Below, piece after piece: positions 41,045-63,979 of a DNA stretch of 64,000 nucleotides; within the stretch, counting starts at the first letter, position 1, and each line of letters begins with the position of its first letter. The stretch lies in assembly GCF_017348835.2 (NCBI RefSeq), contig NZ_CP072315.1; one strand, 5' to 3'. A program made the translations under genes and the position numbers. Source of the DNA: Escherichia coli. GTDB taxonomy: Bacteria > Pseudomonadota > Gammaproteobacteria > Enterobacterales > Enterobacteriaceae. The notes under the pieces were generated by a model that ran no database searches, was not told the origin of the DNA, and worked only from the letters and a program-made list of their open reading frames with translations.

Positions 41045-41884
41045 CTAGGCATGATCTAACCCTCGGTCTCTGGCGTCGCGACTGCGAAATTTCGCGAGGG
41101 TTTCCGAGAAGGTGATTGCGCTTCGCAGATCTCCAGGCGCGTGGGTGCGGACGTAGTCAGCGCCATTGCCGATCGCGTGAAGTTCCGCCGCAAGGCTCGC
41201 TGGACCCAGATCCTTTACAGGAAGGCCAACGGTGGCGCCCAAGAAGGATTTCCGCGACACCGAGACCAATAGCGGAAGCCCCAACGCCGACTTCAGCTTT
41301 TGAAGGTTCGACAGCACGTGCAGCGATGTTTCCGGTGCGGGGCTCAAGAAAAATCCCATCCCCGGATCGAGGATGAGCCGGTCGGCAGCGACCCCGCTCC
41401 GTCGCAAGGCGGAAACCCGCGCCTCGAAGAACCGCACAATCTCGTCGAGCGCGTCTTCGGGTCGAAGGTGACCGGTGCGGGTGGCGATGCCATCCCGCTG
41501 CGCTGAGTGCATAACCACCAGCCTGCAGTCCGCCTCAGCAATATCGGGATAGAGCGCAGGGTCAGGAAATCCTTGGATATCGTTCAGGTAGCCCACGCCG
41601 CGCTTGAGCGCATAGCGCTGGGTTTCCGGTTGGAAGCTGTCGATTGAAACACGGTGCATCTGATCGGACAGGGCGTCTAAGAGCGGCGCAATACGTCTGA
41701 TCTCATCGGCCGGCGATACAGGCCTCGCGTCCGGATGGCTGGCGGCCGGTCCGACATCCACGACGTCTGATCCGACTCGCAGCATTTCGATCGCCGCGGT
41801 GACAGCGCCGGCGGGGTCTAGCCGCCGGCTCTCATCGAAGAAGGAGTCCTCGGTGAGATTCAGAATGCCGAACACCGTCACCAT
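41045..41884 (-). CDS. sul1: Sulfonamide-resistant dihydropteroate synthase Sul1
   Basis: 279 aa from [23 protein letters not shown]. Confidence 0.95.
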
Positions 41885-42225
41885 GGCGTCGGCCTCCGCA
41901 GCGACTTCCACGATGGGGATCGGGCGAGCAAAAAGGCAGCAATTATGAGCCCCATACCTACAAAGCCCCACGCATCAAGCTTTTGCCCATGAAGCAACCA
42001 GGCAATGGCTGTAATTATGACGACGCCGAGTCCCGACCAGACTGCATAAGCAACACCGACAGGGATGGATTTCAGAACCAGAGAAAGAAAATAAAATGCG
42101 ATGCCATAACCGATTATGACAACGGCGGAAGGGGCAAGCTTAGTAAAGCCCTCGCTAGATTTTAATGCGGATGTTGCGATTACTTCGCCAACTATTGCGA
42201 TAACAAGAAAAAGCCAGCCTTTCAT
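41878..42225 (-). CDS. qacEdelta1: Truncated SMR efflux protein QacEdelta1
   Basis: 115 aa [27 protein letters not shown]…. Confidence 0.95.
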
Positions 42226-42335
42226 GATATATCTCCCAATTTGTGTAGGGCTTATTATGCACGCTTAAAAATAATAAAAGCAGACTTGACCTGATAGTTT
42301 GGCTGTGAGCAATTATGTGCTTAGTGCATCTAACG
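42223..42335 (-). repeat. About 110-bp direct repeat, copy A (start of 3'-conserved segment upstream of qacEdelta1)
   Basis: CCCAATTTGTGTAGGGCTTATTATGCACGCTTAAAAATAATAAAAGCAGACTTGACCTGATAGTTTGGCTGTGAGCAATTATGTGCTTAGTGCATCTAACG. Confidence 0.9.
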
Positions 42336-42341
42336 CCTGAA

Positions 42342-43187
42342 TTAAGCTGCGCCGCGAAGCGGCGTCGGCTTGAATGAACTGTTAGACATCATTGGCGTGG
42401 AGCCGAGCAGACTGGCGGCTTCGTGCTTCACAAAGTAAATGAACGCAGTCAACTGATCAGCGCGTGAGGCCAAGCAATCCATCCCTTGTCCAAGGTAAGC
42501 CTGCTGGGCTTCAAGCAGCACGGGCTGATGTTGGACGGGCAGGCGTTCCATTACCCAGTTGGCAGCTACATCCTTCGGCGCGATCTTGCCGGTTGCTGCG
42601 CTGTACCAAATGCGAGACAAAGTAAGCACTACATTCCGCTCGTCGCCTGCCCAATCCGGTTGTGAGTTCCATAGTTTCAAGGTGTCGGCCAGTGCTTTGA
42701 ATAGATCGCTTTCCGGGACTGAGTTGAAGAAATCTTCCGCGGCCGAACCTGCCAAGGCAAGGCTGTGTTGCCTTGCTTTAGTTAGCAGAATAGCCAGATC
42801 AACATCGGTTGTCGCGGGCTCGAAGATGCCCGCAAGAATGTCCTTGCGCTGCCACTCCCCGAATTGCAGTTCCCGTCTGGCTGGATAACGCCAAGGAACA
42901 ACATCGCCGTACACGACGATGGTAACTTCCAAGGCACGGAGAGCTTCACTTTGGCCGGGAGAAGCGGAAACTTCCAGGAAATCTACGAACAGAGCCTGCC
43001 GCACAGTCTCATCGAGCTGTGCAGTCACAGTAACCAGCAAATCAATATCACTGCATGGCTTCAGGCCACCGTCGAGTGCAGAGCCGTACAAATGCACGGC
43101 CAGCAACGTCGATCCCAGATGATGCTCGATGACGTTGAGTGCCTGTGATAGCTGTACCGAAATCTCGGCGGGCACTGCGTTGCTCAT
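42342..43187 (-). CDS. aadA16: Aminoglycoside (3'')(9) adenylyltransferase, aadA16-type
   Basis: 281 aa from MSNAVPAEISVQ; C-terminus …MSNSSFKPTPLRGAA reads into the attC region; allele assignment is from the array context and my recollection of the gene length. Confidence 0.8.
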   Translation of the reverse strand: MSNAVPAEISVQLSQALNVIEHHLGSTLLAVHLYGSALDGGLKPCSDIDLLVTVTAQLDETVRQALFVDFLEVSASPGQSEALRALEVTIVVYGDVVPWRYPARRELQFGEWQRKDILAGIFEPATTDVDLAILLTKARQHSLALAGSAAEDFFNSVPESDLFKALADTLKLWNSQPDWAGDERNVVLTLSRIWYSAATGKIAPKDVAANWVMERLPVQHQPVLLEAQQAYLGQGMDCLASRADQLTAFIYFVKHEAASLLGSTPMMSNSSFKPTPLRGAA

Positions 43188-43299
43188 GATGTCTAACTCC
43201 CAATTTGTGTAGGGCTTATTATGCACGCTTAAAAATAATAAAAGCAGACTTGACCTGATAGTTTGGCTGTGAGCAATTATGTGCTTAGTGCATCTAACG
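43186..43299 (-). repeat. About 110-bp direct repeat, copy B (5' region of the aadA16 cassette)
   Basis: Near-identical to copy A; supplies the MSNA start of aadA16. Confidence 0.9.
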
Positions 43300-43367
43300 C
43301 CGCTAAGCAGCGGCACATTTTGCGTTTTGAGCGCAGCGAAGCAAAATGTGTCCGATGGCTTGGATGG

Positions 43368-43841
43368 TTAACCCCTTTGCCAGATTTGATAGCGATAATT
43401 TATATTTGAATGAAATTCCTGCTCGAACACCACATTGAACTCTTTGGGGATTTCCGGAAAGAAAACATTGCCCTCTGGCTCGGAATCTATTGTCGAGATA
43501 TGTAGCGTGTCGGCATGGGCGATCAGACTCTTGTAGATCTCTCCACCACCAGAAACAACAACATGGTTCGTAAGAGTCTTTAGCTCCCTCATTGCTGCTT
43601 CTATAGATGGAAACACAACCACATCATCGTTAGTAGCTACCGATCCTGAGCGGCTGACAACTGCATACTTTCTATTTGGGAGAGCCCCCATTGCCTCAAA
43701 TGTTTTACGGCCGACTAAGAGCCATTGATTGTAAGTTATTGCTTTAAAAAGCAGCTGCTCACCTTTAGCGTTCCACGGGATATCCGAGCCGCAGCCAATA
43801 ACCCCATTTCTTGCTTTTGCAGCCATTAGTGATATTTTCAC
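43368..43841 (-). CDS. dfrA27: Trimethoprim-resistant dihydrofolate reductase, dfrA27-type
   Basis: 157 aa from a GTG start (V)[22 protein letters not shown]…; 474 bp. Confidence 0.8.
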
Positions 43842-43973
43842 GATACTCCTTTGGGTTAACGCCGCCATAAACGGCGACAGGGTGGCGCGCCTATTGCGCA
43901 TAAAATGGCGAAGCCATGCGCAACAGGCGCGGAATCTCTGGCGTCCGGTTTGATGGCTTTGTTATGCAAAGGA

Positions 43974-44426
43974 CTAGTCTTCAATGACGTGTAAACCACG
44001 GCGCTTTAAGTCCTCCAACGAATCCAACATTCCCCTTATTAATTCAACAGGATGCCCCTCCCAGTCTTCAACAACGCCAACAATTCTCAAGGGTTCGCAG
44101 GTTCTATAGGACTGTGTTGGATTACCGGGAAATCTTTTGTTCGTAAGATTCGGATCGTCTTCGAACGGTCCTGTTGGCTCAACTATGTATATGTAGCCGC
44201 GACCCTCGAGGCCAGACAGTGACATAGCAAGTTCAGCTCCCCAAACTGCTGGCTCCATCAAGGCTGAAAAGTAGATGTGCTTAAGAATACGACCGTCCTC
44301 GAAATGAGAGATGAACCCTGTGGTTAGCAAGTCACCAATCGCCAAATTGGCTTTGGTTCCATGATAGAACGGTCCTTGCACCTGCTTGTAATTATCATGA
44401 GAGATGGGAATCCAATCTTTTACCAT
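43974..44426 (-). CDS. arr-3: Rifampin ADP-ribosyltransferase Arr-3
   Basis: 150 aa MVKDWIPISHDNYKQVQGPFYHGTKANL…. Confidence 0.9.
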   Translation of the reverse strand: MVKDWIPISHDNYKQVQGPFYHGTKANLAIGDLLTTGFISHFEDGRILKHIYFSALMEPAVWGAELAMSLSGLEGRGYIYIVEPTGPFEDDPNLTNKRFPGNPTQSYRTCEPLRIVGVVEDWEGHPVELIRGMLDSLEDLKRRGLHVIED

Positions 44427-44522
44427 TTTAAGACCCTTAATTGTTGGGATTTGGCTGCATAACGTTTGACATGAGGGGCGGCCAAGGGCGCCAGCCCTTG
44501 GACGTCCCCCTCGATGGAAGGG

Positions 44523-45122
44523 TTAGGCATCACTGCGTGTTCGCTCGAATGCCTGGCGTGTTTGAACCATGTACACGGCTGGACCATATGGGGTGGTTAC
44601 GGTACCTTGCCTCTCAAACCCCGCTTTCTCGTAGCATCGGATCGCTCGCAAGTTGCTCGGCGACGGGTCCGTTTGGATCTTGGTGACCTCGGGATCATTG
44701 AACAGCAACTCAACCAGAGCTCGAACCAGCTTGGTTCCCAAGCCTTTGCCCAGTTGTGATGCATTCGCCAGTAACTGGTCTATTCCGCGTACTCCTGGAT
44801 CGGTTTCTTCTTCCCACCGTCCGTCCCCGCTTCCAAGAGCAACGTACGACTGGGCATACCCAATCGGCTCTCCATTCAGCATTGCAATGTATGGAGTGAC
44901 GGACTCTTGCGCTAAAACGCTTGGCAAGTACTGTTCCTGTACGTCAGCAAGTGTCGGGCGTGCTTCTTCTCCGCCCCACCACTCGACGATATGAGATCGA
45001 TTTAGCCACTCATAGAGCATCGCAAGGTCATGCTCAGTCATGAGGCGCAGTGTGACGGAATCGTTGCTGTTGGTCACGATGCTGTACTTTGTGATGCCTA
45101 ACTTTGTTTTTGCGTTGCTCAT
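44523..45122 (-). CDS. aac(6')-Ib-cr: Aminoglycoside/fluoroquinolone acetyltransferase AAC(6')-Ib-cr
   Basis: 199 aa from MSNAKTKLG; carries both -cr signature substitutions (Trp102Arg in GDGRWEEE and Asp179Tyr in TTPYGPAVY, numbering per the usual convention). Confidence 0.9.
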
Positions 45123-45233
45123 GATGTCTAACTCCCAATTTGTGTAGGGCTTATTATGCACGCTTAAAAATAATAAAAGCAGACTTGACCTGATAGTTTG
45201 GCTGTGAGCAATTATGTGCTTAGTGCATCTAAC
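45119..45233 (-). repeat. About 110-bp direct repeat, copy C (5' region of the aac(6')-Ib-cr cassette, next to attI1)
   Basis: Near-identical to copies A and B. Confidence 0.9.
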
Positions 45234-45295
45234 TTTGTTTTAGGGCGACTGCCCTGCTGCGTAACATCGTTGCTGCTCCATAACATCAAACATCG
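45230..45295 (-). other. attI1 recombination site
   Basis: 5'-conserved-segment end sequence …GATGTTATGGAGCAGCAACGATGTTACGCAGCAGGGCAGTCGCCCTAAAACAAAGTT read on the minus strand. Confidence 0.8.
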
Positions 45296-45368
45296 ACCCA
45301 CGGCGTAACGCGCTTGCTGCTTGGATGCCCGAGGCATAGACTGTACAAAAAAACAGTCATAACAAGCC

Positions 45369-46382
45369 ATGAAAACCGCCACTGCGCCGTTACCACCGCT
45401 GCGTTCGGTCAAGGTTCTGGACCAGTTGCGTGAGCGCATACGCTACTTGCATTACAGCTTACGAACCGAACAGGCTTATGTCCACTGGGTTCGTGCCTTC
45501 ATCCGTTTCCACGGTGTGCGTCACCCGGCAACCTTGGGCAGCAGCGAAGTCGAGGCATTTCTGTCCTGGCTGGCGAACGAGCGCAAGGTTTCGGTCTCCA
45601 CGCATCGTCAGGCATTGGCGGCCTTGCTGTTCTTCTACGGCAAGGTGCTGTGCACGGATCTGCCCTGGCTTCAGGAGATCGGAAGACCTCGGCCGTCGCG
45701 GCGCTTGCCGGTGGTGCTGACCCCGGATGAAGTGGTTCGCATCCTCGGTTTTCTGGAAGGCGAGCATCGTTTGTTCGCCCAGCTTCTGTATGGAACGGGC
45801 ATGCGGATCAGTGAGGGTTTGCAACTGCGGGTCAAGGATCTGGATTTCGATCACGGCACGATCATCGTGCGGGAGGGCAAGGGCTCCAAGGATCGGGCCT
45901 TGATGTTACCCGAGAGCTTGGCACCCAGCCTGCGCGAGCAGCTGTCGCGTGCACGGGCATGGTGGCTGAAGGACCAGGCCGAGGGCCGCAGCGGCGTTGC
46001 GCTTCCCGACGCCCTTGAGCGGAAGTATCCGCGCGCCGGGCATTCCTGGCCGTGGTTCTGGGTTTTTGCGCAGCACACGCATTCGACCGATCCACGGAGC
46101 GGTGTCGTGCGTCGCCATCACATGTATGACCAGACCTTTCAGCGCGCCTTCAAACGTGCCGTAGAACAAGCAGGCATCACGAAGCCCGCCACACCGCACA
46201 CCCTCCGCCACTCGTTTGCGACGGCCTTGCTCCGCAGCGGTTACGACATTCGAACCGTGCAGGATCTGCTCGGCCATTCCGACGTCTCTACGACGATGAT
46301 TTACACGCATGTGCTGAAAGTTGGCGGTGCCGGAGTGCGCTCACCGCTTGATGCGCTGCCGCCCCTCACTAGTGAGAGGTAG
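45369..46382 (+). CDS. intI1: Class 1 integron integrase IntI1
   Basis: 337 aa [40 protein letters not shown]…. Confidence 0.95.
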
Positions 46383-49160: not shown

Positions 49161-50738
49161 TTATCCTCGTTTTTCCCAAAACTGTTTTGCCAGTTCGCTC
49201 AGAGCGCTAGTTAACTGAGCGACAGATTTCGCACTTTGCAAATTATTCTGCCCGGTCTGTACATTGGTATCAGCAGCATCGCGTATATTGATAATACTGC
49301 GGTTTATGTCTTCACTTACTGCTCCCTGCTGCTCGACCGCAGTCGCTATTTGCGCGTTCATGTCGGTAATTTCGTTAACGCGTTGGCCAATTCCATCAAG
49401 AGCTGTAGCTGCTTCCTCTGCGTGAGCTACACTCGTGTGCGCTTGCCGACTACTTTGCTCCATGACTGTAACAGCGGATTGCGCTCGCTCTTGTAGAGCG
49501 CTGATCATGCTTTGAATATCCGTTGTCGATTGCTGTGTGCGAGCAGCAAGACTGCGAACCTCATCGGCGACAACAGCAAAACCACGCCCCTGCTCACCAG
49601 CACGCGCGGCCTCAATTGCTGCGTTGAGTGCCAACAAATTCGTTTGCTCGGCGATCCCTCGTATAACGTCAAGAACTTTTGATATCTCGTTACTTTGACC
49701 TTCAAGCTCATGAATAACCTGAGTGGCTTGCCTAATTTCACCTTCAAGGGCAGTGATTGACTGGCTTGTGTGGGCTACCAGACGCTGGCCAGATGCCGTC
49801 TCAGTGTCTGCTCTTCCGGCCGCATCTGCAGCATGCTGTGCATTGCTCGCAACCTCTTGAATGCTTGCCACCATTTGGTTTACTGCCGTTGCTATTTGAT
49901 CTGTCTCTGCCTGCTGCTCAACTGTAAGTACATTGCTTGACTCAATATCCTTTAGTAGGCCTCGGGTGTGTTCGCTAAGCCGATTTGATGCATCACCTAT
50001 GCGACCTACTATGGCGCCTGTTTCAGCTTGCATCATTCGTAAAGCAAACTCTATTTGGCCAAACTCATCGGTGCGCCCAGTGTAGAGGGATTGACTTAAT
50101 GGGTTATTGGAAATATTCCTGGCTCTTTCAACCAGTCTTCCAAGAGGAGAGAGAATAGCCAAAACACTAACAGAGCTTAAGCTTCCTGACATTAAAGTGG
50201 CTAACAATAAGCTGCTTATTGATGTATCAGTAAGCATGCCGGCAGCCATTGCGCTTGATATAATACTACCCCATATGAGCAAGAGTATTTTCACGGAAAA
50301 GCTAGCAGCCAATTTCGGCCTCGCGGCCTTCCCGCTTCTCAATTGAGCATATAATTTTTCCGCAGCCAAAACCTGCTCAGGTTCAGGCTTGGTCCTTACA
50401 GACTGGTATTCAACAATCGAACCATTCTTAGCTATTGGCGTTACATAAGCACTTACCCAATAGTGGTCGCCATTTTTACAGCGATTTTTTACTAGCCCCA
50501 TCCATGAGCGGCCAGATTTTAATGTACTCCACATATGCTCAAATGCAGCAGGCGGCATATCTGGGTGTCTTACGATGTTGTGAGGCTGGCCTAATAGTTC
50601 TTCCTCAGTGAAACCACTGATTTTAATGAAGTCAGGATTAACGTACGTGATATGGCTTTGAGGGGAGGTAGTCGAAAGAATATTGGCATCTTTTGGGAGT
50701 TCTAAGTTTCGACCCGTCACTGGTAAATTCTGGCGCAT
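49161..50738 (-). CDS. Methyl-accepting chemotaxis-like protein (Tn1721 orfI-type) with N-terminal PAS-like region
   Basis: 525 aa from [20 protein letters not shown] signalling-domain character; the 730-aa track ORF is a fusion with antisense IS26 sequence. Confidence 0.8.
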
Positions 50739-53120: not shown

Positions 53121-53213
53121 TCTGGTCATGGTATTTTTCATGGCACTGAGCCTGATAGTTCTTGCAAATTGTTGTCACTAAAGGGTTTTGTGTGCTTGTT
53201 TACAATCGAGTGG

Positions 53214-54850
53214 GAGTGACGGGCACTGGCTGGCAATGTCTAGCAACGGCAGGCATTTCGGCTGAGGGTAAAAGAACTTTCCGCTAAGCGATAGACTGTA
53301 TGTAAACACAGTATTGCAAGGACGCGGAACATGCCTCATGTGGCGGCCAGGACGGCCAGCCGGGATCGGGATACTGGTCGTTACCAGAGCCACCGACCCG
53401 AGCAAACCCTTCTCTATCAGATCGTTGACGAGTATTACCCGGCATTCGCTGCGCTTATGGCAGAGCAGGGAAAGGAATTGCCGGGCTATGTGCAACGGGA
53501 ATTTGAAGAATTTCTCCAATGCGGGCGGCTGGAGCATGGCTTTCTACGGGTTCGCTGCGAGTCTTGCCACGCCGAGCACCTGGTCGCTTTCAGCTGTAAG
53601 CGTCGCGGTTTCTGCCCGAGCTGTGGGGCGCGGCGGATGGCCGAAAGTGCCGCCTTGCTGGTTGATGAAGTACTGCCTGAACAACCCATGCGTCAGTGGG
53701 TGTTGAGCTTCCCGTTTCAGCTGCGTTTCCTGTTTGCCAGCCGGCCCGAGATCATGGGGTGGGTGCTGGGCATCGTTTACCGCGTCATTGCCACGCACCT
53801 GGTCAAGAAAGCGGGCCATACCCACCAAGTGGCCAAGACGGGCGCGGTCACCCTGATCCAGCGTTTTGGATCGGCGCTCAATCTGAATGTTCACTTCCAC
53901 ATGCTGTTTCTCGACGGTGTGTATGTCGAGCAATCCCACGGCTCAGCGCGTTTCCGCTGGGTCAAGGCGCCGACCAGCCCAGAGCTCACCCAGCTGACGC
54001 ACACCATCGCCCACCGGGTGGGTCGCTATCTGGAACGGCAAGGCCTGCTGGAACGGGATGTCGAAAACAGCTATCTGGCCTCGGATGCGGTGGATGACGA
54101 CCCGATGACACCCCTGCTGGGGCACTCGATCACTTACCGTATCGCTGTCGGTTCACAGGCGGGGCGAAAGGTGTTCACTTTGCAAACTCTGCCGACCAGT
54201 GGTGATCCGTTCGGTGACGGGATTGGCAAGGTAGCCGGGTCCAGCCTGCACGCCGGCGTGGCGGCCAGGGCCGATGAACGCAAGAAGCTCGAACGGCTGT
54301 GCCGGTACATCAGCCGCCCGGCGGTATCCGAGAAGCGGCTGTCGTTAACACGAGGCGGCAACGTGCGCTACCAGCTCAAGACGCCGTACCGGGACGGCAC
54401 CACGCACGTCATTTTCGAACCATTGGATTTCATTGCAAGGCTGGCCGCCCTGGTACCGAAGCCCAGAGTCAACCTAACCCGCTTCCACGGGGTGTTCGCA
54501 CCCAACAGTCGGCACCGGGCGTTGGTCACGCCGGCAAAACGGGGCAGGGGCAACAAGGTCAGGGTGGCTGATGAACCGGCAACACCAGCACAACGGCGAG
54601 CGTCGATGACATGGGCGCAACGGCTCAAGCGTGTTTTCAATATCGACATCGAGACCTGCAGCGGCTGCGGCGGCGCCATGAAAGTCATCGCCTGCATTGA
54701 AGACCCTATAGTGATCAAGCAGATCCTTGATCACCTGAAGCACAAAGCCGAAACCAGCGGGACCAGGGCGTTACCCGAAAGCCGGGCGCCACCGGCTGAG
54801 CTGCTCCTGGGTCTGTTTGACTGACGAGCCTGAAGGCCAACGATACCAAT
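53214..54850 (+). mobile_element. ISCR2 (IS91-like rolling-circle element); 3' boundary approximate
   Basis: Contains the ISCR2-type transposase gene; its first 305 bp are duplicated at 57498-57802. Confidence 0.75.
53331..54824 (+). CDS. ISCR2 transposase (IS91 family)
   Basis: 497-aa ORF MPHVAARTASRDRDTGRYQSHRPEQTLLYQ…. Confidence 0.85.
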   Translation: MPHVAARTASRDRDTGRYQSHRPEQTLLYQIVDEYYPAFAALMAEQGKELPGYVQREFEEFLQCGRLEHGFLRVRCESCHAEHLVAFSCKRRGFCPSCGARRMAESAALLVDEVLPEQPMRQWVLSFPFQLRFLFASRPEIMGWVLGIVYRVIATHLVKKAGHTHQVAKTGAVTLIQRFGSALNLNVHFHMLFLDGVYVEQSHGSARFRWVKAPTSPELTQLTHTIAHRVGRYLERQGLLERDVENSYLASDAVDDDPMTPLLGHSITYRIAVGSQAGRKVFTLQTLPTSGDPFGDGIGKVAGSSLHAGVAARADERKKLERLCRYISRPAVSEKRLSLTRGGNVRYQLKTPYRDGTTHVIFEPLDFIARLAALVPKPRVNLTRFHGVFAPNSRHRALVTPAKRGRGNKVRVADEPATPAQRRASMTWAQRLKRVFNIDIETCSGCGGAMKVIACIEDPIVIKQILDHLKHKAETSGTRALPESRAPPAELLLGLFD

Positions 54851-55955: not shown

Positions 55956-57170
55956 ATGACCACCACACGCCCCGCGTGGGCCTATACGCTGCCGGCAGCA
56001 CTGCTGCTGATGGCTCCTTTCGACATCCTCGCTTCACTGGCGATGGATATTTATCTCCCTGTCGTTCCAGCGATGCCCGGCATCCTGAACACGACGCCCG
56101 CTATGATCCAACTCACGTTGAGCCTCTATATGGTGATGCTCGGCGTGGGCCAGGTGATTTTTGGTCCGCTCTCAGACAGAATCGGGCGACGGCCAATTCT
56201 ACTTGCGGGCGCAACGGCTTTCGTCATTGCGTCTCTGGGAGCAGCTTGGTCTTCAACTGCACCGGCCTTTGTCGCTTTCCGTCTACTTCAAGCAGTGGGC
56301 GCGTCGGCCATGCTGGTGGCGACGTTCGCGACGGTTCGCGACGTTTATGCCAACCGTCCTGAGGGTGTCGTCATCTACGGCCTTTTCAGTTCGATGCTGG
56401 CGTTCGTGCCTGCGCTCGGCCCTATCGCCGGAACATTGATCGGCGAGTTCTTGGGATGGCAGGCGATATTCATTACTTTGGCTATACTGGCGATGCTCGC
56501 ACTCCTAAATGCGGGTTTCAGGTGGCACGAAACCCGCCCTCTGGATCAAGTCAAGACGCGCCGATCTGTCTTGCCGATCTTCGCGAGTCCGGCTTTTTGG
56601 GTTTACACTGTCGGCTTTAGCGCCGGTATGGGCACCTACTTCGTCTTCTTCTCGACGGCTCCCCGTGTGCTCATAGGCCAAGCGGAATATTCCGAGATCG
56701 GATTCAGCTTTGCCTTCGCCACTGTCGCGCTTGTAATGATCGTGACAACCCGTTTCGCGAAGTCCTTTGTCGCCAGATGGGGCATCGCAGGATGCGTGGC
56801 GCGTGGGATGGCGTTGCTTGTTTGCGGAGCGGTCCTGTTGGGGATCGGCGAACTTTACGGCTCGCCGTCATTCCTCACCTTCATCCTACCGATGTGGGTT
56901 GTCGCGGTCGGTATTGTCTTCACGGTGTCCGTTACCGCGAACGGCGCTTTGGCAGAGTTCGACGACATCGCGGGATCAGCGGTCGCGTTCTACTTCTGCG
57001 TTCAAAGCCTGATAGTCAGCATTGTCGGGACATTGGCGGTGGCACTTTTAAACGGTGACACAGCGTGGCCCGTGATCTGTTACGCCACGGCGATGGCGGT
57101 ACTGGTTTCGTTGGGGCTGGTGCTCCTTCGGCTCCGTGGGGCTGCCACCGAGAAGTCGCCAGTCGTCTAA
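55956..57170 (+). CDS. floR: Florfenicol/chloramphenicol MFS exporter FloR
   Basis: 404 aa MTTTRPAWAYTLPAALLLMAPFDILASLAMDIYLPVV…. Confidence 0.95.
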   Translation: MTTTRPAWAYTLPAALLLMAPFDILASLAMDIYLPVVPAMPGILNTTPAMIQLTLSLYMVMLGVGQVIFGPLSDRIGRRPILLAGATAFVIASLGAAWSSTAPAFVAFRLLQAVGASAMLVATFATVRDVYANRPEGVVIYGLFSSMLAFVPALGPIAGTLIGEFLGWQAIFITLAILAMLALLNAGFRWHETRPLDQVKTRRSVLPIFASPAFWVYTVGFSAGMGTYFVFFSTAPRVLIGQAEYSEIGFSFAFATVALVMIVTTRFAKSFVARWGIAGCVARGMALLVCGAVLLGIGELYGSPSFLTFILPMWVVAVGIVFTVSVTANGALAEFDDIAGSAVAFYFCVQSLIVSIVGTLAVALLNGDTAWPVICYATAMAVLVSLGLVLLRLRGAATEKSPVV

Positions 57171-57197
57171 CCGACGACTGGTAGCAGGCCCGCTCCG

Positions 57198-57503
57198 ATG
57201 CGGCGCACTAACCATCGAAACCTCGTGAATGTCGGTATCCTGTCTGGCAGGATACCGCTCATTTCCCTTGTTCAGTTCATCGCCGTCGCCGAGCATCTGA
57301 ATTTTCGGCATGCGGCCAAGGCACTTGGTATCAGCCAGTCGAGCGTCAGCGCGCGTGTGAAAGCGCTGGAGGATAACCTTGGTGTCCTGCTATTTGAGCG
57401 CCATGCGCGGGGCGTTCGGCTAACAGACGCAGGCAGGCACTTCATGGAGCGTGTCACGGCGGGTGTCGATCAACTCGATCACGCAGTGAAGACCGCGGAG
57501 TGA
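57198..57503 (+). pseudogene. lysR: Truncated LysR-family regulator
   Basis: 101 aa with LysR HTH only; cut off by the ISCR2 5' fragment. Confidence 0.75.
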
Positions 57504-57802
57504 CGGGCACTGGCTGGCAATGTCTAGCAACGGCAGGCATTTCGGCTGAGGGTAAAAGAACTTTCCGCTAAGCGATAGACTGTATGTAAACACAGTATTG
57601 CAAGGACGCGGAACATGCCTCATGTGGCGGCCAGGACGGCCAGCCGGGATCGGGATACTGGTCGTTACCAGAGCCACCGACCCGAGCAAACCCTTCTCTA
57701 TCAGATCGTTGACGAGTATTACCCGGCATTCGCTGCGCTTATGGCAGAGCAGGGAAAGGAATTGCCGGGCTATGTGCAACGGGAATTTGAAGAATTTCTC
57801 CA
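57498..57802 (+). mobile_element. ISCR2 5' fragment (305-bp direct repeat of 53214-53518)
   Basis: Identical by eye to the start of the complete ISCR2, including the first 63 codons of its transposase. Confidence 0.85.
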
Positions 57803-58969
57803 AAGCCCGCGACGCAGCGCCGGCAGGCAGAGCAAGTAGAGGGCAGCGCCTGCAATCCATGCCCACCCGTTCCACGTTGTTATAGAAGCCGCATAGATCG
57901 CCGTGAAGAGGAGGGGTCCGACGATCGAGGTCAGGCTGGTGAGCGCCGCCAGTGAGCCTTGCAGCTGCCCCTGACGTTCCTCATCCACCTGCCTGGACAA
58001 CATTGCTTGCAGCGCCGGCATTCCGATGCCACCCGAAGCAAGCAGGACCATGATCGGGAACGCCATCCATCCCCGTGTCGCGAAGGCAAGCAGGATGTAG
58101 CCTGTGCCGTCGGCAATCATTCCGAGCATGAGTGCCCGCCTTTCGCCGAGCCGGGCGGCTACAGGGCCGGTGATCATTGCCTGGGCGAGTGAATGCAGAA
58201 TGCCAAATGCGGCAAGCGAAATGCCGATCGTGGTCGCGTCCCAGTGAAAGCGATCCTCGCCGAAAATGACCCAAAGCGCGGCCGGCACCTGTCCGACAAG
58301 TTGCATGATGAAGAAGACCGCCATCAGGGCGGCGACGACGGTCATGCCCCGGGCCCACCGGAACGAAGCGAGCGGGTTGAGAGCCTCCCGGCGTAACGGC
58401 CGGCGTTCGCCTTTGTGCGACTCCGGCAAAAGGAAACAGCCCGTCAGGAAATTGAGGCCGTTCAAGGCTGCCGCGGCGAAGAACGGAGCGTGGGGGGAGA
58501 AACCGCCCATCAGCCCACCGAGCACAGGTCCCGCGACCATCCCGAACCCGAAACAGGCGCTCATGAAGCCGAAGTGCCGCGCGCGCTCATCGCCATCAGT
58601 GATATCGGCAATATAAGCGCCGGCTACCGCCCCAGTCGCCCCGGTGATGCCGGCCACGATCCGCCCGATATAGAGAACCCAAAGGAAAGGCGTCGTCGCC
58701 ATGATGGCGTAGTCGACAGCAGCGCCGGCCAGCGAGACGAGCAAGACCGGCCGCCGCCCGAAACGATCCGACAGCGCGCCCAGCACAGGTGCGCAGGCAA
58801 ATTGCATCAACGCATACAGCGCCAGCAGAATGCCATAGTGGGCGGTGACGTCGTTCGAGTGAACCAGATCGCGCAGGAGGCCCGGCAGCACCGGCATAAT
58901 CAGGCCGATGCCGACAGCGTCGAGCGCGACAGTGCTCAGAATTACGATCAGGGGTCTGTTGGGTTTCAC
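57770..58969 (-). CDS. tetA(A): Tetracycline efflux protein TetA(A), 3' end replaced by ISCR2-derived sequence
   Basis: 399 aa from a GTG start (V)KPNRPLIVILSTVALDAVG…; the last 33 nt lie inside the ISCR2 fragment, giving a …RRGLWRNSSNSRCT C-terminus. Confidence 0.9.
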   Translation of the reverse strand: MKPNRPLIVILSTVALDAVGIGLIMPVLPGLLRDLVHSNDVTAHYGILLALYALMQFACAPVLGALSDRFGRRPVLLVSLAGAAVDYAIMATTPFLWVLYIGRIVAGITGATGAVAGAYIADITDGDERARHFGFMSACFGFGMVAGPVLGGLMGGFSPHAPFFAAAALNGLNFLTGCFLLPESHKGERRPLRREALNPLASFRWARGMTVVAALMAVFFIMQLVGQVPAALWVIFGEDRFHWDATTIGISLAAFGILHSLAQAMITGPVAARLGERRALMLGMIADGTGYILLAFATRGWMAFPIMVLLASGGIGMPALQAMLSRQVDEERQGQLQGSLAALTSLTSIVGPLLFTAIYAASITTWNGWAWIAGAALYLLCLPALRRGLWRNSSNSRCT

Positions 58970-59017
58970 GTCTGGCCTCCGGACCAGCCTCCGCTGGTCC
59001 GATTGAACGCGCGGATT

Positions 59018-59066
59018 CTTTATCACTGATAAGTTGGTGGACATATTATGTTTATCAGTGATAAAG
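59018..59066. promoter_or_regulatory. tet operator region (two palindromic operators) between tetA and tetR
   Basis: TTTATCACTGATAA and TTTATCAGTGATAAA palindromes in the divergent intergenic region. Confidence 0.8.
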
Positions 59067-59074
59067 TGTCAAGC

Positions 59075-59725
59075 ATGACAAAGTTGCAGCCGAATACAGT
59101 GATCCGTGCCGCCCTGGACCTGTTGAACGAGGTCGGCGTAGACGGTCTGACGACACGCAAACTGGCGGAACGGTTGGGGGTTCAGCAGCCGGCGCTTTAC
59201 TGGCACTTCAGGAACAAGCGGGCGCTGCTCGACGCACTGGCCGAAGCCATGCTGGCGGAGAATCATACGCATTCGGTGCCGAGAGCCGACGACGACTGGC
59301 GCTCATTTCTGATCGGGAATGCCCGCAGCTTCAGGCAGGCGCTGCTCGCCTACCGCGATGGCGCGCGCATCCATGCCGGCACGCGACCGGGCGCACCGCA
59401 GATGGAAACGGCCGACGCGCAGCTTCGCTTCCTCTGCGAGGCGGGTTTTTCGGCCGGGGACGCCGTCAATGCGCTGATGACAATCAGCTACTTCACTGTT
59501 GGGGCCGTGCTTGAGGAGCAGGCCGGCGACAGCGATGCCGGCGAGCGCGGCGGCACCGTTGAACAGGCTCCGCTCTCGCCGCTGTTGCGGGCCGCGATAG
59601 ACGCCTTCGACGAAGCCGATCCGGACGCAGCGTTCGAGCAGGGACTCGCGGTGATTGTCGATGGATTGGCGAAAAGGAGGCTCGTTGTCAGGAACGTTGA
59701 AGGACCGAGAAAGGGTGACGATTGA
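59075..59725 (+). CDS. tetR(A): Tetracycline repressor TetR(A)
   Basis: 216 aa from MTKLQPNTVIRAALDLLNEVGVDGLTTRKLAERLGVQQPALYWHF. Confidence 0.95.
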   Translation: MTKLQPNTVIRAALDLLNEVGVDGLTTRKLAERLGVQQPALYWHFRNKRALLDALAEAMLAENHTHSVPRADDDWRSFLIGNARSFRQALLAYRDGARIHAGTRPGAPQMETADAQLRFLCEAGFSAGDAVNALMTISYFTVGAVLEEQAGDSDAGERGGTVEQAPLSPLLRAAIDAFDEADPDAAFEQGLAVIVDGLAKRRLVVRNVEGPRKGDD

Positions 59726-60198
59726 TCAGGACCGCTGCCGGAGCGCAACCCACTCACTACAGCAGAGCCATGTAGACAACATCCCCTCCCCCTTTCCACC
59801 GCGTCAGACGCCCGTAGCAGCCCGCTACGGGCTTTTTCATGCCCTGCCCTAGCGTCCAAGCCTCACGGCCGCGCTCGGCCTCTCTGGCGGCCTTCTGGCG
59901 CTCCTGCTGCGGCGTCCGCTCGTGGGCCGTGGCGCGGGTCCGCGCGCCGGCCTCGTGCGCCTGGCGCTCGCGGGCGAGGTCCAGGGCGGCCGTCTTCACG
60001 TTCTGCCTTGCGCAGATGAGATAGATCTAGCGTGGACTCAAGGCTCTCGCGAATGGCTCGCGTTGGAAACTTTCATTGACACTTGAGGGGCACCGCAGGG
60101 AAATTCTCGTCCTTGCGAGAACCGGCTATGTCGTGCTGCGCATCGAGCCTGCGCCCTTGGCTTGTCTCGCCCCTCTCCGCGTCGCTACGGGGCTTCCA

Positions 60199-63127: not shown

Positions 63128-63979
63128 TCAGCCTGCCGCCTTGGGCCGGGTGATGTCGTACTTGCCCGCCGCGAACTCGGTTACCGTCCAGCCCAGCGCG
63201 ACCAGCTCCGGCAACGCCTCGCGCACCCGCTGGCGGCGCTTGCGCATGGTCGAACCACTGGCCTCTGACGGCCAGACATAGCCGCACAAGGTATCTATGG
63301 AAGCCTTGCCGGTTTTGCCGGGGTCGATCCAGCCACACAGCCGCTGGTGCAGCAGGCGGGCGGTTTCGCTGTCCAGCGCCCGCACCTCGTCCATGCTGAT
63401 GCGCACATGCTGGCCGCCACCCATGACGGCCTGCGCGATCAAGGGGTTCAGGGCCACGTACAGGCGCCCGTCCGCCTCGTCGCTGGCGTACTCCGACAGC
63501 AGCCGAAACCCCTGCCGCTTGCGGCCATTCTGGGCGATGATGGATACCTTCCAAAGGCGCTCGATGCAGTCCTGTATGTGCTTGAGCGCCCCACCACTAT
63601 CGACCTCTGCCCCGATTTCCTTTGCCAGCGCCCGATAGCTACCTTTGACCACCATGGCATCAGCGGTGACGGCCTCCCACTTGGGTTCCAGGAACAGCCG
63701 GAGCTGCCGTCCGCCTTCGGTCTTGGGTTCCGGGCCAAGCACTAGGCCATTAGGCCCAGCCATGGCCACCAGCCCTTGCAGGATGCGCAGATCATCAGCG
63801 CCCAGCGGCTCCGGGCCGCTGAACTCGATCCGCTTGCCGTCGCCGTAGTCATACGTCACGTCCAGCTTGCTGCGCTTGCGCTCGCCCCGCTTGAGGGCAC
63901 GGAACAGGCCGGGGGCCAGACAGTGCGCCGGGTCGTGCCGGACGTGGCTGAGGCTGTGCTTGTTCTTAGGCTTCACCAC
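63128..63979 (-). CDS. repC: RSF1010-type (IncQ) replication protein RepC
   Basis: 283 aa MVKPKNKHSLSHVRHDPAHCLAPGLFRALKRGERKRSKLDVTYDYGDGKRIEF…. Confidence 0.9.
   Translation of the reverse strand: MVKPKNKHSLSHVRHDPAHCLAPGLFRALKRGERKRSKLDVTYDYGDGKRIEFSGPEPLGADDLRILQGLVAMAGPNGLVLGPEPKTEGGRQLRLFLEPKWEAVTADAMVVKGSYRALAKEIGAEVDSGGALKHIQDCIERLWKVSIIAQNGRKRQGFRLLSEYASDEADGRLYVALNPLIAQAVMGGGQHVRISMDEVRALDSETARLLHQRLCGWIDPGKTGKASIDTLCGYVWPSEASGSTMRKRRQRVREALPELVALGWTVTEFAAGKYDITRPKAAG

What the first reader, a model, noticed from the sequence alone, without database searches (positions are those of the whole stretch)
57770..57802. TetA(A) C-terminus encoded by ISCR2-derived sequence
The last 33 nt of the tetA(A) ORF lie within the ISCR2 fragment, so the protein ends …RRGLWRNSSNSRCT instead of its native tail (recalled as …WSGAGQRADR). 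This is a fusion created by the ISCR2 junction. Function is probably retained but untested.
Basis: partly seen in the sequence, partly recalled or inferred. Interest (0 to 1): 0.35.

Follow-up and report, generated by a model that had tools for sequence, protein, structure and literature searches.

The report
Known tetA(A) tail swap from ISCR2
The tetracycline pump gene tetA(A) here lost its last nine codons where it was joined to a broken ISCR2 element and reads nine replacement codons from that element, but this allele is common, already described and shown to work, so the finding is real and ordinary.

Summary
tetA(A) runs on the minus strand from a GTG at 58969 to a TAG at 57770-57772 and encodes 399 aa ending ...RRGLWRNSSNSRCT. 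Native Tn1721-type TetA(A) ends ...RRGLWSGAGQRADR. Identity to native tetA(A) stops at 57798. Identity to the intact ISCR2 copy in the same window (307/307 bp) runs to 57803. The two therefore meet in a 6-bp shared CTCCAA. Nine residues are swapped and the length is unchanged.

This is not new. The same junction is in 1,053 PLSDB plasmids, against 3,150 with the native end, and in 573 of 5,426 complete E. coli genomes. It is also in pSN254, whose antibiotic resistance island (ARI-B) has the same gene order. RefSeq's PGAP annotation and AMRFinderPlus both call the gene tet(A). Fan et al. 2025 (PMC12888893) name this substitution as the defining change of TetA "Clade II". The window protein equals their TetA-2.2 (tail plus A93T). 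They cloned 28 variants, and TetA-2.2 is not among the four that lost tetracycline resistance.

ISCR2 is probably a passive partner, because the junction lies inside its transposase gene and not at an element end. Novelty: already known. Interest is low.

The parts
57770..58969 (-). tetA(A) coding sequence, 399 aa plus TAG stop, GTG start. The allele equals TetA-2.2 of Fan et al. and RefSeq WP_032153701.1.
   Evidence: ORF list. NCBIfam Tet(A) model NF012193 scores 891.2 bits against a cutoff of 840. The PGAP coordinates in pTB221 encode an identical protein. Exact match to the published TetA-2.2 sequence.
57770..57797 (-). ISCR2-specific part of the tetA ORF: the stop codon, codons 392-399, and the third base of codon 391. 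It encodes the tail RNSSNSRCT.
   Evidence: The first nucleotide that differs from native tetA(A) is gene position 1173, which is window position 57797. The stretch is identical to the interior of rcr2 in the intact ISCR2 copy.
57798..57803 (.). 6-bp microhomology CTCCAA shared by ISCR2 and native tetA(A). This is the crossover point.
   Evidence: ISCR2-only hits cover query positions 1-154 and tetA-only hits cover 149-301 of the query 57650-57950. Three-way alignment. The chance of 6 bp or more of overlap is about 0.0013.
57497..57803 (+). Truncated ISCR2: 118 bp upstream of rcr2 plus the first 189 bp (63 codons) of rcr2.
   Evidence: 307/307 identity to 53213-53519. Weak partial hit to the ISCR clade Ia model, 45 bits against a cutoff of 925. 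PGAP annotates it as 'IS91 family transposase, incomplete, missing C-terminus'.
57615..57839 (+). 225-nt ORF, the 'hp225' of Fan et al. It is 63 codons of rcr2 followed by 11 codons read from the antisense strand of tetA. It is a remnant and probably not a gene.
   Evidence: ORF list. Its length is 225 nt and it overlaps tetA by 70 nt. The paper's description of hp225.
57798..59973 (.). Tn1721-derived segment: tetA(A) lacking its last 28 bp, tetR(A), and 248 bp beyond tetR.
   Evidence: BLAST of L001 against the window gives L001 3001-5176 matching window 57798-59973 at 99.9%.
59075..59725 (+). tetR(A) repressor, transcribed divergently from tetA.
   Evidence: NCBIfam TetR model, 304.5 bits against a cutoff of 265, scored on the longer ORF 59048-59725. 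PGAP coordinates mapped from L003.
59043..59072 (-). Promoter-like -35/-10 pair for tetA in the tetR-tetA intergenic region. It overlies the ATG at 59044, so the 424-aa ORF is an over-extension.
   Evidence: Promoter scan: TTGACA, 16-nt spacer, CATAAT, 11 of 12 matches.
58691..58693 (-). Codon 93, ACC (Thr) in place of GCC (Ala). This A93T change separates TetA-2.2 from TetA-2.1.
   Evidence: It is the single nucleotide and amino-acid difference from the pSHE-CTX-M and pSN254 alleles.
53213..54824 (+). Left end and transposase gene (rcr2, 53331-54824, 497 aa) of the intact ISCR2 copy. This is the reference for the truncated copy.
   Evidence: Annotated as 'IS91-like element ISVsa3 family transposase' WP_001120888.1.
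55956..57503 (+). floR (55956-57170) and a truncated lysR (57198-57503), lying between the two ISCR2 5' ends.
   Evidence: FloR model, 899 bits against a cutoff of 700, and N-terminal-only LysR hits. Annotation of L003.

Best explanation
A Tn1721-derived tetR(A)-tetA(A) fragment (57798-59973) is joined to a 307-bp 5' remnant of ISCR2 (57497-57803) at a 6-bp microhomology. The join removed the last 28 bp of tetA(A). Translation therefore continues for nine codons on the antisense strand of the transposase remnant until an in-frame TAG. The product is a 399-aa pump whose tail RNSSNSRCT replaces SGAGQRADR. The swapped residues 391-399 come after the last hydrophobic stretch (W369-L385) and the RR motif, so they lie outside the conserved 12-helix core, and the pump still exports tetracycline. 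The event happened once. It was most likely an illegitimate, microhomology-mediated deletion or recombination with ISCR2 as a passive partner. It has since spread with the floR-tetA(A)-strAB-sul2 module. Shown: the sequence anatomy, the prevalence, and allele identity with the published TetA-2.2. From the literature: function. Inferred: how the junction formed and where the tail sits in the membrane protein.
For: Sequence anatomy rests. A single origin with wide spread is supported by 1,053 plasmids and 573 of 5,426 E. coli genomes holding the junction region at >=80% coverage, with >=99% identity in almost all matching records. The native end is in 3,150 plasmids and 1,542 genomes. pSN254 has the same module and junction. 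The Tet(A)/(B)/(C) family model (382 positions) aligns only to residues 4-384 in 399-aa numbering, so the tail is outside the conserved core. The sequence shows the order W369-L385, then RR386-387, then the tail. For function, Fan et al. define Clade II by this nine-residue swap and list only TetA-2.5, 2.7, 2.8 and 6.1 as having lost tetracycline resistance. The window protein is identical to TetA-2.2. pSN254 has one tetA copy and no other annotated tet gene, and it carries a T phenotype with 'tetRA class A' as its only tetracycline determinant. The chance of 6 bp or more of microhomology is about 0.0013.
Against: I could not read the MIC values in Fig. 4 of Fan et al., so a modest quantitative effect of the tail on tetracycline MIC is not excluded. 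The same paper reports that TetA-2.6 (G300E plus this tail) gives higher minocycline and tigecycline resistance than TetA-1.8 (G300E alone), which hints that the tail is not fully neutral. No precursor configuration (intact ISCR2 next to complete tetA-pecM) was looked for, so the junction mechanism is inferred from the sequence alone. The tail's position after the last helix rests on sequence inspection and the extent of the family model, not on a structure. The nearest solved homologue, NorA, aligns only to residue 363.
Confidence: 0.94

Rival explanations
1. The RNSSNSRCT end is the ancestral tetA(A) 3' end, and the Tn1721-type SGAGQRADR end is the derived one.
For: The fused allele is a 100%-identity AMRFinderPlus reference. 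Both proteins are 399 aa.
Against: Positions 57770-57797 are identical to the interior of an intact, continuous 497-aa ISCR2 transposase gene in the same window. Thousands of ISCR2 copies without tetA also carry this sequence. The tail sequence therefore belongs to ISCR2. The native end is about three times more frequent.
Confidence: 0.01
2. The fusion inactivates or cripples the pump, so tetA here is a carried-along pseudogene.
For: Nine residues are replaced by unrelated sequence that includes a new cysteine. Four other Clade II or minor variants did lose function, through additional mutations.
Against: TetA-2.1 and TetA-2.2 are not among the variants with empty-vector MICs. pSN254's only tet gene is this allele and its listed phenotype includes tetracycline. 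The ORF is kept intact in more than 1,000 plasmids.
Confidence: 0.03
3. ISCR2 itself created the junction by rolling-circle transposition or read-through, that is, an active ISCR2-mediated capture of tetA.
For: ISCR2 is associated with the mobilisation of neighbouring resistance genes. A full copy sits 4.3 kb away.
Against: The break is 189 bp inside rcr2. It is not at the element boundary about 118-119 bp upstream of rcr2 and not at the 3' ori end. The remnant lacks 434 of 497 codons. The 6-bp microhomology fits illegitimate recombination.
Confidence: 0.05
4. The junction is an assembly chimera in this window.
For: The region is rich in repeats, with several IS26 copies and two ISCR2 5' ends.
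Against: The identical junction is found in independent complete assemblies from many genera, including Sanger-era pSN254.
Confidence: 0.005

Closest known systems
TetA 'Clade II', variant TetA-2.2 (Fan et al., Antimicrob Agents Chemother 2025, PMC12888893); RefSeq WP_032153701.1
   Same: The 399-aa sequence is identical. It has the same defining nine-residue C-terminal substitution and the same floR/'hp225' neighbourhood.
   Different: Nothing differs in the protein. The paper treats the neighbouring 225-bp ORF as a hypothetical gene and does not name ISCR2. Here that ORF is shown to be the first 63 codons of ISCR2 rcr2.
Tn1721/RP1-type TetA(A) (UniRef cluster TCR1_ECOLX; TetA-1.1)
   Same: Residues 1-390 are identical except A93T. 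It has the same GTG start, the same tetR(A) partner, and the same length of 399 aa.
   Different: The last nine residues are SGAGQRADR rather than RNSSNSRCT. The native gene is followed by a convergent EamA/DMT (pecM-like) gene instead of the ISCR2 remnant.
The floR-tetA(A)-strAB-sul2 configuration of resistance island ARI-B in IncC plasmids, e.g. pSN254
   Same: Same order: IS26, resolvase, ISCR2, DUF3363, floR, truncated lysR, truncated ISCR2, tetA, tetR, strB, strA, sul2. Same junction sequence. This is described as the commonest ARI-B form.
   Different: The best-matching record here is an IncHI2A Salmonella plasmid, and the module ends in an IncQ-type repC rather than the IncC backbone. 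The window allele has A93T, whereas pSN254 has A93.
ISCR2 (CR2, ISVsa3), an IS91-like rolling-circle element
   Same: The 307-bp remnant is 100% identical to the left end of the intact copy.
   Different: Only 63 of 497 transposase codons remain and there is no 3' ori end. It cannot be a functional element.

Membership tests
Tet(A) tetracycline efflux MFS transporter (NCBIfam NF012193) | Whole-protein score at or above the curated cutoff of 840 bits | tested here: met
   891.2 bits, with profile positions 1-394 of 394 aligned.
Tet(A) tetracycline efflux MFS transporter (NCBIfam NF012193) | Conserved Tet(A)/(B)/(C) core intact through the last transmembrane segment | tested here: met
   NF012174 aligns positions 1-381 of 382 to residues 4-384 in 399-aa numbering. 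The swap starts at residue 391, after W369-L385 and RR386-387.
Tet(A) tetracycline efflux MFS transporter (NCBIfam NF012193) | Confers tetracycline resistance | not testable with these tools
   Literature only. The identical protein TetA-2.2 is not among the four inactive cloned variants. pSN254 has a tetracycline-resistance phenotype.
TetA Clade II (Fan et al. 2025) | C-terminal nine-residue substitution SGAGQRADR to RNSSNSRCT | tested here: met
   Exact identity to TetA-2.2.
ISCR2 as a functional element | Complete rcr2 transposase (497 aa) with both element ends | tested here: not met
   The copy at the junction keeps 63 codons and scores 45 bits against a cutoff of 925. PGAP marks it incomplete.
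ISCR2-derived sequence | Nucleotide identity to an intact ISCR2 | tested here: met
   307/307 identity to 53213-53519.
Tn1721 as a complete transposon | tetR-tetA-pecM flanked by the Tn1721 transposition genes and inverted repeats | tested here: not met
   Only 57798-59973 matches the Tn1721-type context. The EamA/pecM side is replaced by ISCR2.
IncC resistance island ARI-B | Module located in an IncC backbone upstream of parA | tested here: not met
   The gene order equals pSN254 ARI-B. However, the nearest record is typed IncHI2A/IncQ1 and the right flank is repC.

The most novel reading that the evidence does not exclude
The ISCR2-derived tail is not neutral. It changes pump level or substrate range, for example through epistasis with G300E toward minocycline, tigecycline and eravacycline. 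Alternatively, the remnant transposase promoter drives antisense transcription into the tetA 3' end. Either way, a junction accident would have created a functionally distinct Tet(A) lineage. The only support is Fan et al.'s remark that TetA-2.6 (G300E plus tail) outperforms TetA-1.8 (G300E alone). The simple scan found no promoter-like site in the remnant.
Probability: 0.15. Interest if true: 0.3.

Novelty: already known. Interest (0 to 1): 0.08.

Why it matters
It matters little beyond bookkeeping. The allele is one of the two major tet(A) forms in Enterobacterales, found in about a quarter of tet(A) plasmids in PLSDB and about 10% of complete E. coli genomes. Its 3' junction is therefore a handy lineage marker for the floR-tetA(A)-strAB-sul2 module. 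Tools that compare against the Tn1721 reference will report about 97.7% identity or a "variant" for a gene that is functional. One small addition to the literature is that the "hp225" hypothetical gene invoked by Fan et al. is simply the 5' stump of the ISCR2 transposase gene. A second is that the crossover sits in a 6-bp microhomology.

Tried and rejected
- Eight keyword searches of the paper library (ISCR2/tetA/floR/Tn1721, ARI-B, pMBSF1, WP_032153701, C-terminal tail, pSN254) found papers that describe the module but not the tail. Only a search for the peptide strings themselves found the key paper.
- The pEIMS-171561 paper was not used as functional evidence, because I did not confirm that plasmid's junction.
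- PMC4407236 (pAR060302) is not held in the library.
- The solved-structure search gave only distant MFS homologues, with NorA aligning to residue 363, so it says nothing about the tail.
- The terminator scan found no terminator-like site downstream of tetA in the ISCR2 remnant, and no promoter-like site there either.
- The 424-aa ORF from the ATG at 59044 was rejected as the gene. That ATG lies under the predicted tetA promoter, and PGAP and AMRFinderPlus both use the GTG at 58969.
- An apparent 613-bp length difference from NZ_CP090540.1 turned out to be an IS26 piece joined by the search tool. The window is collinear with that plasmid.
- Structure prediction and the large protein-database searches were not run, because they could not change the verdict.

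Full report
**Observation**

The ORF list shows a minus-strand ORF at 57770..59044 of 424 aa. It ends ...CLPALRRGLWRNSSNSRCT. It scores 891.2 bits on the NCBIfam Tet(A) model, whose cutoff is 840.

The ATG at 59044 lies under a strong promoter-like site, TTGACA-16-CATAAT at 59072-59045 on the minus strand. PGAP and AMRFinderPlus both start the gene at the GTG at 58969. The real product is therefore 399 aa.

**The ISCR2 side of the junction**

An intact ISCR2 transposase gene (rcr2, 497 aa) lies at 53331-54824. Aligning its 5' region with the junction region shows 100% identity from 53213/57497 through 53519/57803, which is 307 bp. After that the two sequences diverge completely. The remnant keeps 118 bp upstream of rcr2 and 63 codons. 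This left boundary agrees with the published element boundary of about 119 bp upstream of rcr.

The plus-strand ORF at 57615-57839 (74 aa) is these 63 codons plus 11 codons read from the antisense strand of tetA. It gives only a 45-bit partial hit to the ISCR clade Ia model, whose cutoff is 925. PGAP annotates it as an incomplete IS91-family transposase pseudogene that overlaps tet(A).

**The tetA side of the junction**

In a plasmid search with 57650-57950, tetA-only records matched query positions 149-301. ISCR2-only records matched positions 1-154. One native locus, pNDM5_020007 (L001), was fetched. Its TetA translates to ...RRGLWSGAGQRADR*. That exact protein is in the UniRef cluster represented by TCR1_ECOLX.

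Base-by-base comparison shows the first 3' difference at gene position 1173, which is window position 57797. L001 matches the window over 57798-59973. The two parental sequences therefore overlap in six bases, CTCCAA at 57798-57803. The chance of 6 bp or more of junctional microhomology is about 0.0013.

The net effect is that residues 391-399 change from SGAGQRADR to RNSSNSRCT. The length stays at 399 aa. The net charge of the tail changes from +1 to +2, and a cysteine is introduced. The window allele also carries A93T at codon 58691-58693.

In fact 34 nt are ISCR2-identical, and only 28 of those are ISCR2-specific.

**How it most likely arose**

The break lies inside rcr2 and not at either ISCR2 end, and it sits in a microhomology. 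I infer an illegitimate (microhomology-mediated) recombination or deletion in which ISCR2 was a passive partner. An ISCR2 transposition event is less likely. This step is inference, and I did not look for a precursor.

The event appears to have happened once. Of the plasmid records matching the 301-bp junction query, 1,053 cover at least 80% of it, and almost all matching records are at least 99% identical. The native 3' end is in 3,150 plasmids out of 4,221 records with any match to the tetA 3'-end query. Among complete E. coli genomes, 573 of 5,426 have the fused end and 1,542 have the native end.

**Function**

The Tet(A)/(B)/(C) family model aligns only through residue 384. The sequence shows a last hydrophobic stretch at W369-L385, then RR386-387, then the swapped tail. 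The tail therefore lies outside the conserved core. Its cytoplasmic location is inferred from this, not shown.

The literature settles the functional question. A search for the two tail peptides found Fan et al. 2025. They classify 28 K. pneumoniae TetA variants. [quoted passage not shown] They attribute this to overlap with a 225-bp hypothetical gene, hp225, next to floR.

They expressed all variants with tetR on a low-copy plasmid in E. coli MG1655 and K. pneumoniae TU37. They report that 85.7% confer tetracycline resistance. Only TetA-2.5, 2.7, 2.8 and 6.1 were indistinguishable from the empty vector. Their supplementary sequence of TetA-2.2 is identical to the window protein. I could not read the numerical MICs, which are in a figure.

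There is independent support from pSN254. It carries the identical junction. It has a single tetA copy and no other annotated tet gene. Welch et al. 2007 list it with a tetracycline-resistance phenotype and with "tetRA class A" as its only tetracycline determinant.

**Context**

Window positions 39896-64000 are 99.99% collinear with the Salmonella IncHI2A plasmid p2016062-242. The gene order is IS26, resolvase, hypothetical gene, ISCR2, DUF3363, floR, truncated lysR, truncated ISCR2, tetA(A), tetR(A), transposase fragment, strB, strA, sul2. This equals the ARI-B island of IncC plasmid pSN254. That arrangement has been described as the commonest ARI-B configuration.

**Comparison with what is known, and verdict**

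The protein is a full member of Tet(A). It is an exact match to a published, named and functionally tested variant. AMRFinderPlus already holds the A93 form of the fused allele as a 100%-identity reference. RefSeq holds the window form as WP_032153701.1.

The feature is already known and ordinary. Two things go slightly beyond the cited paper. First, "hp225" is the ISCR2 transposase stump. Second, the crossover lies in a 6-bp microhomology.

The one open thread is whether the tail is fully neutral. Fan et al. note that G300E with this tail (TetA-2.6) gives higher minocycline and tigecycline resistance than G300E alone (TetA-1.8).

Noticed in passing
window 53213-53519 and 57497-57803 (period 4284 bp): Two direct 307-bp copies of the ISCR2 5' end bracket the rcr2-DUF3363-floR-lysR' unit. 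The IncC plasmid pSHE-CTX-M (L002) is identical on both sides but lacks exactly one 4,284-bp period. The floR unit can therefore be gained or lost by homologous recombination between these repeats. It may have entered a pre-existing truncated-ISCR2::tetA junction.
   Followed up: partly
window 58691-58693 (codon 93 of tetA): The A93T substitution separates the window allele (TetA-2.2, WP_032153701.1, 99.75% to the AMRFinderPlus reference) from the pSN254/pSHE-CTX-M allele (TetA-2.1, 100%). The T93 form is itself seen on at least 1,000 contigs.
   Followed up: partly
window 57615-57839 (+): The 'hp225' hypothetical gene that Fan et al. 2025 hold responsible for the Clade II tail is this 225-nt ORF. 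It is 63 codons of ISCR2 rcr2 fused to antisense tetA. ISCR2 is not mentioned in the main text of that paper.
   Followed up: yes
window 58970-59074: The mechanical 424-aa tetA ORF starts at an ATG (59044) that lies inside the predicted tetA promoter. Some database entries nevertheless carry the 424-aa form, seen on 75 contigs and in one case named 'Tetracycline repressor protein TetA class A'.
   Followed up: partly
window 49161-50738 (-): A PAS-domain methyl-accepting chemotaxis protein gene lies about 7 kb away from the tetAR fragment, between IS26 copies. From memory, this is the orfI gene of Tn1721/Tn1722. If so, a second Tn1721 remnant is present in the window (coordinates mapped).
   Followed up: no
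window 41048-46382: A class 1 integron carries aac(6')-Ib-cr5, arr-3, dfrA27, aadA16, qacEdelta1 and sul1. It is flanked by IS26 copies upstream of the floR/tetA module.
   Followed up: no
window 63128-63979 (-): An IncQ-type repC lies directly beyond sul2. The sul2-strA-strB end of the module is therefore RSF1010-like here and not the GIsul2/IncC backbone seen in pSN254.
   Followed up: no
window 59075-59725 and 55956-57170: The TetR(A) here is WP_001493764.1, whereas pSN254 and the native Tn1721-type locus have WP_000164043.1. FloR is 99.75% identical to its reference. The window lineage therefore carries a few extra point changes.
   Followed up: no
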